Source of the DNA: a virus
Taxonomy: Duplodnaviria; Caudoviricetes
Reading direction: 5' to 3' (one strand)
DNA length: 64,000 nt
IMG/VR virus record: IMGVR_UViG_3300028591_000098
Location: 99,396 to 163,395 of that record
Below are positions 57,544-57,861 of this stretch, in pieces (the stretch's first letter is position 1; each line of letters begins with the position of its first letter). The position numbers and the translations under genes were made by a program. Under the pieces are notes generated by a model. The model was not told the origin of the DNA. It searched no databases and saw nothing but the letters and a program-made list of their open reading frames with translations.

Positions 57544-57575
57544 AAAAAGGAGTTATTTTAGTAACTCCTCTTTTT
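57544..57575 (-). terminator. intrinsic terminator at end of the Pth2-like gene
   Basis: aggagtta/taactcct hairpin; A run on plus strand = U tract. Confidence 0.7.
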
Positions 57576-57861
57576 GAATTTTTCGTTTAAGTATTTCTGG
57601 TAATCCACCTTCCCAAACTGCTATGGATGTTGTTTGATTATTTAAATCAGGTTCATTAAATTGTGAAAAATATTTAGCATCATATTCACACAATAAATTC
57701 TGCCATTTATTAATATCTACAGATAAATAAATCAAATAATCATTATTCCATTTAGTCTATCCATGTTCAATCAACCAAGCAGATACAGCATGTCCACCCT
57801 GAACTGCACCATATATTGGATCTAAGTTCTTATCTATTAATATATATAATTTATTCTTCAT
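57553..57861 (-). CDS. peptidyl-tRNA hydrolase (Pth2-like), 102 aa, requiring read-through of in-frame TAG at 57757-57759
   Basis: MKNKLYILIDKNLDPIYGAVQGGHAVSAWLIEHG-TAG-TKWNNDYLIYL...FNEPDLNNQTTSIA; ATG overlaps upstream stop (ATGA). Confidence 0.8.

What the first reader, a model, noticed from the sequence alone, without database searches (positions are those of the whole stretch)
57553..57861. Pth2-like hydrolase split by a single in-frame TAG
Seen: the ORF track reports only the C-terminal 60 aa. An ATG at 57861, coupled to the upstream stop, gives the Pth2-type N-terminal motif (LYIL..xL...AVQGGHA), then TAG at codon 35, then the EPD..TSIA half in the same frame with no other lesion. Inference: read-through dependent, Gln being the usual residue in amber-recoded phages.
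Basis: partly seen in the sequence, partly recalled or inferred. Interest (0 to 1): 0.8.

Follow-up and report, generated by a model that had tools for sequence, protein, structure and literature searches.

The report
Amber-gated tRNA-hydrolase-like gene beside suppressor tRNA
A small phage gene for a peptidyl-tRNA-hydrolase-like protein keeps a UAG stop codon at one fixed place inside it, next to the phage's own UAG-reading tRNA, so the protein is probably made only while that tRNA overrides the stop: a built-in translational switch, not a broken gene.

Summary
Window 57553-57861 (minus strand) is one 102-codon frame with a TAG at codon 35 and no other lesion.

**Fold.** The read-through product folds confidently (pLDDT 96.7). 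It matches only Pth2 peptidyl-tRNA hydrolases (Z 10-10.8), but the Pfam PTH2 model does not hit it.

**Not a pseudogene.** 17 distinct relatives carry TAG at the same alignment column. One has TAA and none has CAA or CAG. Synonymous sites are saturated (dS about 1.1) and both halves are under purifying selection (dN/dS 0.11 and 0.38). The "Q" shown for database homologues is this same TAG, translated with code 15.

**Not ordinary recoding.** The 163-kb contig otherwise uses TAG as a stop in 17 genes. The only other internal TAG is in a conserved 13-codon leader ORF of the same operon.

**Link to suppressor tRNAs.** A tRNA(CUA) lies 1.4 kb upstream. In 45 of 50 related phage loci, and in Lak megaphages, the family sits beside a suppressor tRNA (CUA, UCA or UUA).

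**Best reading.** Expression is gated by the suppressor tRNA. The inserted residue, the enzyme's substrate and any feedback are unknown.

This scan has noted such cassettes on other DNA, mostly with the stop at codons 3-5. I found no paper describing them.

The parts
57553..57861 (-). Pth2-fold gene, 102 codons plus TAA; its start ATG overlaps the upstream stop (ATGA).
   Evidence: PHROG 3668 'hydrolase' E 4e-6, with the match spanning the TAG. AlphaFold pLDDT 96.7. Pth2 structures Z 10-10.8.
57757..57759 (-). In-frame TAG, codon 35, in the loop between helix 1 (residues 15-33) and strand 2 (42-48).
   Evidence: The same alignment column is TAG in 17 distinct relatives and TAA in 1, never CAA/CAG. 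The next base is a purine in 17 of 18.
57543..57574 (-). Terminator-like hairpin plus T run that overlaps the end of the gene; the likely end of the operon.
   Evidence: 13-pair stem; 4 terminator-like sites found against 0.5 expected in shuffles.
57858..58076 (-). 72-aa ORF, no known family, translationally coupled to the Pth2-like gene.
   Evidence: A 72-77-aa ORF stands in this place in several relatives.
58081..58539 (-). 152-aa ORF, no known family; a variable member of the operon.
58551..59000 (-). 149-aa helical protein ('MENKE...'), the first ORF after the leader. It is conserved in 13 of 17 relatives compared.
   Evidence: Model pLDDT 93. No structural match in the PDB.
59033..59073 (-). 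Hairpin between the leader and the first ORF, with compensatory changes.
   Evidence: 8 pairs, 3 of them with changes on both sides across 18 relatives.
59112..59153 (-). Leader ORF M-K-Q-H-W-TAG-I-D-I-R-G-F-P-stop, with an in-frame TAG at codon 6 (59138-59136).
   Evidence: The same 13-codon ORF, with TAG at codon 6 and ending G-F-P-TAA, lies about 100 nt after the suppressor tRNA in all 18 relatives examined, including the three whose Pth2-like gene has no TAG.
59260..59332 (-). tRNA with anticodon CUA (amber suppressor), last gene of the tRNA array, 1398 nt upstream of the gene on the same strand.
   Evidence: ARAGORN (the label 'Pyl' only reflects the anticodon). Rfam tRNA 41.3 bits. Cloverleaf. 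Homologous tRNA(CUA) upstream of the gene in every relative with enough flank.

Best explanation
The gene is intact and its expression is gated by amber suppression. It is the last gene of a minus-strand operon whose order is tRNA(CUA), a 13-codon leader ORF with UAG at codon 6, a structured spacer, three small ORFs, the Pth2-fold gene with UAG at codon 35, and a terminator. Without a charged suppressor tRNA, release factor 1 ends translation after 34 residues (strand 1 plus helix 1), which cannot form the fold. When the phage tRNA(CUA) is made, charged and competes with RF1, codon 35 is decoded. It lies in a surface loop that tolerates any residue, and the 102-residue protein is made. Selection therefore keeps the codon, not an amino acid. 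The protein family is a partner of phage suppressor tRNAs in general, whether or not it carries the stop. By its fold it most likely cleaves an ester-linked acyl- or peptidyl-tRNA. My inference is that it deals with a by-product of suppression or tunes it, so that its amount follows the level of read-through, as RF2 synthesis follows RF2 activity through the in-frame UGA of prfB. Shown here: the anatomy, the conservation, the fold and the linkage. Inferred: read-through by this tRNA, the residue inserted, the enzymatic activity, and any feedback.
For: (1) The TAG is conserved as a codon. The column reads TAG 17, TAA 1, CAA/CAG 0 among 18 distinct sequences, with median dS about 1.1. In the same sequences the invariant Gln21 alternates CAA 13 / CAG 5, and the column after the stop has 11 different codons. 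All 8 database proteins checked that show Q there are encoded with TAG; one of them is indexed in 76 blocks of the collection. About 100 of the 121 family proteins examined (120 database hits plus the query) show that Q.
(2) Both halves are under purifying selection, with median dN/dS 0.11 before the stop and 0.38 after it. W38, N40 and Y42, just after the stop and before any possible restart codon, are invariant. The halves form one confidently predicted domain.
(3) A matching tRNA(CUA) lies on the same strand 1.2-2.1 kb upstream in every TAG-bearing relative with enough flank.
(4) 45 of 50 IMG/VR loci of the family have a suppressor tRNA on the same strand within about 2 kb. It is the nearest tRNA in 42 of those 45, often 5-150 nt after the gene's stop. 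The anticodon is CUA in most, UCA in L019 and UUA in Lak-like loci. In Lak-A1 and Lak-B1 the suppressor is the only tRNA within 3 kb.
(5) L019, nested in the TAG clade, has a tRNA(UCA) in place of CUA and has no TAG in the gene.
(6) The contig is not recoded. 17 of 193 ORFs of 80 aa or more end in TAG. The only other internal-TAG candidate proved to be two genes.
(7) A second conserved in-frame TAG lies in the operon's leader ORF.
(8) Pth2 fold: Foldseek prob 1.00, TM 0.6-0.7; VIA-align Z 10-10.8, with the next unrelated fold at Z 3.
Against: Nothing is experimental. It is not shown that the tRNA is expressed or charged, or that the full-length protein exists. One relative (L014) has TAA at the site while its tRNA has anticodon CUA, which cannot read UAA; yet its downstream half still looks constrained against L018 (dN/dS about 0.19). 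Three relatives (L005, L007, L008) keep the tRNA and the leader but have no TAG in the gene, so the gate is dispensable. The Pfam PTH2 model does not match, and the loop that carries the catalytic Lys of Pth2 is replaced by P-I-Y-G, so hydrolase activity is not assured. An efficient suppressor would also extend the 17 TAG-terminated phage proteins and host proteins, which should be costly. The contig is only about 64% of a genome by CheckV, so other TAG-bearing genes may exist in the missing part.
Confidence: 0.72

Rival explanations
1. TAG is simply a sense codon (Gln, code 15) of an amber-recoded phage and has no regulatory meaning. It happens to sit in this gene.
For: Relatives include known TAG-recoded Lak phages. 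A tRNA(CUA) is present. TAG is a minority stop codon here (17 of 193 ORFs). 36% of the genome is unseen.
Against: No large gene in 163 kb has an internal TAG. In published recoded clades 26-71% of genes do (Borges et al. preprint). The codon is never exchanged for CAA/CAG despite saturated synonymous sites. TAG-less homologues do not have Gln there. The neighbours of TAG-bearing relatives are almost free of TAG.
Confidence: 0.1
2. The stop is a leaky terminator read through at a low level by host tRNAs or by context, independent of the phage suppressor. It serves only to keep the protein scarce or to give two products.
For: L014 has TAA with a CUA tRNA. The base after the stop is a purine in 17 of 18 and A in 13 of 18; by established E. 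coli genetics this is a good suppression context and a weak termination context (my knowledge).
Against: No conserved downstream sequence or structure follows the stop; the following codons vary and carry indels of 0-16 residues. The stop is TAG in 17 of 18, matching the linked tRNA. The one clade member whose linked suppressor is UCA has no TAG.
Confidence: 0.1
3. The gene is a pseudogene, or it is a true split gene whose two parts are made separately.
For: Under the standard code the frame is interrupted. A TTG at codon 43 could start a 60-aa product.
Against: Purifying selection acts on both parts over dS of about 1. The stop is conserved at one column in independent assemblies from many samples. 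Invariant residues W38, N40 and Y42 lie between the stop and the first possible restart. There is no conserved start codon after the stop in relatives. The two parts form a single domain.
Confidence: 0.03

Closest known systems
Archaeal/eukaryotic peptidyl-tRNA hydrolase 2 (Pth2, Pfam PF01981; PDB 2zv3, 1wn2, 1q7s Bit1, 3erj, 1xty) and phage proteins annotated as such (Klebsiella phage RaK2, Mycobacterium phage Myrna)
   Same: Same alpha/beta fold over the whole length: Z 10-10.8, rmsd 2.7-2.8 A over 96-99 residues. TM 0.75-0.8 to the phage proteins. A shared 'VAQGGHA'-like motif at the start of helix 1. A conserved acidic residue and Thr in the second half (E70-P71-D72...T78).
   Different: The Pfam model is not reached. 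The protein is about 15 residues shorter. The Gly-Lys loop before helix 1 is replaced by P-I-Y-G. No activity is known. It is tightly linked to suppressor tRNAs and carries an in-frame stop, neither of which is described for Pth2.
Stop-codon recoding in gut phages by phage suppressor tRNAs (TAG read as Gln, 'code 15'; Lak and crAss-like phages; Borges et al. preprint 10.1101/2021.08.26.457843; Peters et al. PMC9523058)
   Same: A phage-encoded tRNA(CUA), a low-GC genome with TAA as the main stop codon, and in-frame TAG used as a post-transcriptional control. Homologues of the gene occur in Lak phages.
   Different: Here one enzyme gene and one leader ORF carry TAG, while all large genes of the 163-kb contig, structural ones included, are free of it, and 17 genes stop at TAG. 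No RF or Glu/Gln-tRNA synthetase gene was found on the contig. The preprint mentions suppressor tRNAs in standard-code relatives only as a possible step before recoding, and it names no hydrolase.
prfB (release factor 2) autoregulation through an in-frame UGA
   Same: A conserved in-frame stop codon inside a gene of the translation apparatus, so that the yield of the product reports how that stop is being decoded.
   Different: prfB needs a +1 frameshift and senses a release factor. Here the frame does not change and the sensor would report a suppressor tRNA. Whether the product feeds back on decoding is unknown.
Suppressor-tRNA-gated Pth2-like cassettes noted earlier in this scan on other genomes (e1-933198, e1-5344394, e1-3412306 and others)
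   Same: A Pth2-fold gene, a suppressor tRNA on the same strand, and an in-frame stop that matches its anticodon, in a genome that otherwise uses the standard code.
   Different: Those notes place the stop at codons 3-5. Here it is codon 35, in the loop after helix 1, in a rumen/gut phage clade. The tRNA is 1.2-2.1 kb upstream, behind a TAG-bearing leader ORF and one to four other ORFs. By shared short words the protein matched no earlier window except its own.

Membership tests
Pth2 (Pfam PF01981) | Match to the family model at or above its curated cut-off (23 bits) | tested here: not met
   hmmscan of the read-through product gives no PTH2 hit even at E 10. A six-frame search of the whole contig with PF01981 gives no match, while the controls respond. 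A profile of 40 family members against PDB sequences finds 2zv3 only at E 1.3.
Pth2 (Pfam PF01981) | Pth2 alpha/beta fold | tested here: met
   Model pLDDT 96.7, pTM 0.90. Foldseek's 14 best entries are all Pth2 or the related 2gax. VIA-align Z 9.8-10.8 over 96-99 residues, next fold at Z 3.
Pth2 (Pfam PF01981) | Catalytic residues (Lys in the loop before helix 1 and Asp in the second half, as reported for Sulfolobus Pth2; from my knowledge of the literature) | tested here: inconclusive
   The alignment to 2zv3 puts P-I-Y-G where Pth2 has G-K-G-K. Invariant Q21, H24, E70, P71, D72 and T78 could supply an active site. No residue-level structural superposition was available.
Pth2 (Pfam PF01981) | Hydrolysis of peptidyl-tRNA | not testable with these tools
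   Needs an enzyme assay.
PHROG 3668 ('hydrolase') | Match to the family profile | tested here: met
   E 4.1e-6, residues 1-82 on profile positions 1-96, spanning the TAG.
Amber-recoded phage (code 15) | Phage-encoded tRNA(CUA) | tested here: met
   Window 59260-59332.
Amber-recoded phage (code 15) | A sizeable share of genes with in-frame TAG (26-71% in published clades) | tested here: not met
   Only this gene and the leader ORF carry one in 163 kb. The candidate at genome 58644-59435 is two genes. 17 ORFs end in TAG. The contig is about 64% of a genome.
Suppressor-tRNA-gated Pth2-like cassette (this scan's earlier notes) | Pth2-fold gene with an in-frame stop matching a suppressor tRNA on the same strand, conserved among relatives | tested here: met
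   Only the TAG/CUA pairing could be tested in this clade. L014 (TAA with CUA) is an exception.
prfB-type autoregulation | The product acts on the decoding of its own in-frame stop | not testable with these tools
   The conserved in-frame stop is shown. The action of the product is unknown.

The most novel reading that the evidence does not exclude
The operon is a self-contained amber-suppression sensor with two UAG checkpoints: the conserved leader peptide M-K-Q-x-W-UAG-...-G-F-P and codon 35 of the hydrolase. The Pth2-like enzyme acts on the suppressor tRNA itself or on the peptidyl-tRNAs that read-through creates. A feedback loop would then set how strongly a phage that otherwise uses the standard code overrides UAG in its host. 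This would give suppressor tRNAs of standard-code phages their first defined client and regulator.
Probability: 0.25. Interest if true: 0.9.

Novelty: new variant of a known kind. Interest (0 to 1): 0.72.

Why it matters
Suppressor tRNAs are common in large gut and rumen phages. What they do in phages that otherwise use the standard code, and how suppression is kept in check, are open questions. A small enzyme gene that is nearly always linked to these tRNAs offers a concrete client. In a whole clade it keeps the matching stop codon at one surface-loop position while everything around it drifts. The module is compact and testable: tRNA, leader, gated gene. It also warns annotators that the 'Q' in database homologues is a translated TAG, and that standard gene callers split or miss this gene.

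Tried and rejected
- Pfam and a six-frame PF01981 search gave no hit.
- Crude comparison of ORF totals under different codes did not discriminate recoding.
- The second internal-TAG candidate (genome 58644-59435, TAG at codon 110) was rejected. Homologues of the S77 prohead protease are 144-154 aa and cover only the part after the TAG, so the TAG ends a separate upstream ORF. The search for related loci with it found nothing.
- TAGs near the C-termini of RuvC-like and other genes are ordinary stops.
- The suppressor's amino-acid identity could not be settled. It is 62-67% identical to every other tRNA of the contig. Its acceptor stem is unlike the phage's tRNA-Gln.
By eye the two segments do covary between this window and L007, but I did not test this formally.
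- The 149-aa operon partner has no Pfam or PHROG family and no PDB fold match.
- Read laying gave contigs only, which cannot show transcription. A contig from an RNA library covers 57650-58363 at 97% identity. No difference at 57757-57759 is listed, but 44 differences were not shown.
- No RF-1 domain or Glu/Gln-tRNA synthetase gene was found on the contig.

Full report
**Observation.** The minus strand of window 57553-57861 reads as one frame of 102 codons. It opens with an ATG at 57861 that overlaps the TGA of the upstream 72-aa ORF (ATGA). It has a TAG at codon 35 (57759-57757), a TAA at the end, and no other lesion. The standard ORF list shows only the two pieces. A terminator-like hairpin with a T run overlaps the end of the gene.

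**What the protein is.** Read through, the product has no Pfam hit. It matches PHROG 3668 'hydrolase' across the TAG (E 4e-6). With an alignment of 40 family members AlphaFold gives pLDDT 96.7 and a strand-helix-strand-helix-strand-strand-helix domain. Residue 35 lies in the loop between helix 1 (15-33) and strand 2 (42-48).

- Foldseek's clear matches are only Pth2 peptidyl-tRNA hydrolases and the related 2gax.
- VIA-align gives Z 9.8-10.8 over 96-99 residues, with the next fold at Z 3.
- Among viral models the best matches are phage proteins annotated as peptidyl-tRNA hydrolase (RaK2, Myrna and others).
- For a natural TAG-less homologue, the nearest ESM Atlas clusters are viral clusters in which 21-56% of members carry PF01981.

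So this is a divergent viral branch of the Pth2 fold. It fails the Pfam model. The Gly-Lys loop of Pth2 is replaced by P-I-Y-G. Q21, H24, E70-P71-D72 and T78 are invariant.

**The TAG is conserved, not damage.** 194 homologues were found. The closest show 'Q' at codon 35, but every one I traced to DNA has TAG there. All eight look-ups returned 'with_TAG=Q', including a protein indexed in 76 blocks of the collection. About 100 of the 121 family proteins examined (120 database hits plus the query) show that Q after H/N/Y-G/W.

In a codon alignment of 19 distinct stop-bearing genes, one column is TAG in 17 and TAA in one (L014). A distant member (L055) has TAG one column on. CAA or CAG never occurs there. 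Meanwhile:

- Median dS is about 1.1.
- The invariant Gln21 alternates between CAA (13) and CAG (5).
- The codon after the stop has 11 forms, and indels of 0-16 residues begin right after it.
- Median dN/dS is 0.11 before the stop and 0.38 after it.
- Invariant W38, N40 and Y42 lie between the stop and any possible restart.

TAG-less homologues carry Cys, Ser, Pro, Asn and other residues around this position. Selection therefore holds the codon, not a residue. A pseudogene and a split gene are both excluded. On a tree of the family the loop stop needs at least four changes. It was lost in L005/L007/L008, where the loop was rebuilt, and in L019.

**The genome is not recoded.** The window lies in a 163,395-bp linear IMG/VR record of 25% GC, about 64% complete by CheckV. 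No large ORF has an internal TAG. Of 193 ORFs of 80 aa or more, 156 end in TAA, 20 in TGA and 17 in TAG. The one other candidate is a 263-codon frame with TAG at codon 110. It is two genes, because protease homologues cover only the part after the TAG. No RF or Glu/Gln-tRNA synthetase gene is on the contig.

**The suppressor tRNA and the family's linkage to it.** A tRNA with anticodon CUA lies at 59260-59332 on the same strand, 1398 nt upstream, as the last member of a tRNA array. ARAGORN's label 'Pyl' only reflects the anticodon. The tRNA has a normal cloverleaf with GG in the D loop and a TTCGAG T loop.

50 IMG/VR loci of the family come mostly from 100-450-kb rumen and gut phages. 45 of them have a suppressor tRNA on the same strand within about 2 kb, and in 42 of the 45 it is the nearest tRNA.

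- In our clade it lies 0.6-2.1 kb upstream, at the end of the array.
- In other clades it starts 5-150 nt after the gene's stop.
- L019 has tRNA(UCA) 17 nt downstream.
- Lak-like loci have tRNA(UUA) about 500 nt upstream.
- In the published Lak-A1 and Lak-B1 genomes the suppressor is the only tRNA within 3 kb of the homologue.
- Suppressors of 72-78 nt and of 86-92 nt (long variable arm) both occur, so the link is to suppression, not to one tRNA lineage.

Every TAG-bearing gene with enough flank has a tRNA(CUA). L019, nested among TAG-bearing genes but linked to UCA, has no TAG.

**A second checkpoint.** About 100 nt after the tRNA lies a 13-codon ORF, M-K-Q-H-W-TAG-I-D-I-R-G-F-P-stop (window 59153-59112). 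The same ORF is present in all 18 relatives examined and again in further metagenome contigs, with TAG at codon 6 and ending G-F-P-TAA. It is also present in the three relatives whose gene lacks TAG. A hairpin between it and the first ORF shows compensatory changes at 3 of 8 pairs. The context TGG-TAG-A is shared by the leader and by the long-loop form of the gene.

The ORFs between the leader and the gene vary in number (one to four). None of them carries TAG. The commonest first ORF is a 149-aa helical protein with no known fold.

**How it most likely works.** Shown here: an intact, constrained gene of Pth2 fold; a stop codon fixed in a tolerant loop; a matching tRNA in the same transcription unit; family-wide linkage to suppressor tRNAs; and a genome that otherwise treats TAG as a stop.

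Inferred: the tRNA(CUA) decodes codon 35, so the enzyme is made only while suppression is active. The enzyme works on an acyl- or peptidyl-tRNA ester connected with suppression. Its amount then tracks read-through, by analogy with the in-frame UGA of prfB.

I put 0.72 on gating by the suppressor and about 0.25 on a true feedback circuit. The residue inserted is unknown. The suppressor has G1-C72, U2-G71 and A73, whereas the phage's tRNA-Gln(UUG) has U1-A72. Position 31-39 of the anticodon stem is mismatched in ours and in the relatives read.

**Weak points.**
- There is no expression or protein evidence. The reads were contigs only.
- L014 carries TAA with a CUA tRNA.
- Three relatives do without the gate.
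- 36% of the genome is unseen.

**Comparison and novelty.** Full-text searches found no paper that joins Pth2, suppressor tRNA and phage. The main recoding paper and a 2026 jumbo-phage survey do not mention a hydrolase. Phage recoding as regulation is known. A single conserved client gene linked to the tRNA in a standard-code phage is a new variant of it.

This scan has reported similar cassettes on other genomes, mostly with the stop at codons 3-5. One of them was later priced at 85/100 for what was seen and 20/100 for the bold reading. The present clade differs in the position of the stop (codon 35, a loop), in the upstream tRNA, and in the TAG-bearing leader.

Noticed in passing
window 59112-59153 (-): A 13-codon leader ORF M-K-Q-H-W-TAG-I-D-I-R-G-F-P-TAA lies about 100 nt after the suppressor tRNA. 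It is conserved with its TAG in all 18 relatives examined. It belongs to another first-stage finding (e1-5779818).
   Followed up: partly
window 59260-59332 (-) and homologues in L005-L033: The suppressor tRNA(CUA) has a non-Watson-Crick 31-39 pair (C-A, C-C or A-C) in ours and in the relatives read by eye. This leaves a 4-bp anticodon stem, while pair 28-42 covaries. L017 and L024 also have C33 instead of U33. ARAGORN misses several of these tRNAs.
   Followed up: partly
window 59759-59845 (-): A tRNA with anticodon CCA (Trp) is 87 nt long with a long variable arm. Thr(UGU), Met(CAU) and Ile(AAU) genes of 82-85 nt occur in the same array.
   Followed up: no
window 60598-60665 (-): Rfam's tRNA model matches here (41.8 bits), but ARAGORN calls no tRNA.
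   Followed up: no
genome G000 58644-59435 (-), outside the window (L057:1645-2436): A 109-aa ORF ends in TAG in the same frame as the S77 prohead protease gene that follows. Suppression would fuse them into a 263-residue protein. Homologues show the protease is normally separate.
   Followed up: partly
L014:9992-10342: A relative has TAA instead of TAG at the conserved stop column although its linked tRNA has anticodon CUA. Its downstream half still looks constrained.
   Followed up: partly
L017:8603-8932 and L021:5840-6200: Phage-encoded tmRNA genes (Rfam 78-84 bits) lie 1-4 kb from the Pth2-like gene in two large phages.
   Followed up: no
L044:1107-1189, L049:10576-10659: Two family members lack a suppressor nearby. 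Instead they have long-arm tRNAs 240-280 nt downstream, read as Leu(CAA) and Thr(CGU). CAA differs from CUA by one base.
   Followed up: no
window 58551-59000 (-): The 149-aa first ORF of the operon is conserved in 13 relatives and confidently predicted as helical (pLDDT 93). It has no family and no PDB fold match.
   Followed up: yes
L054:9998-10291: A distant family member has its in-frame TAG in a different loop (codon 66). No tRNA was found in the 11-kb locus.
   Followed up: no
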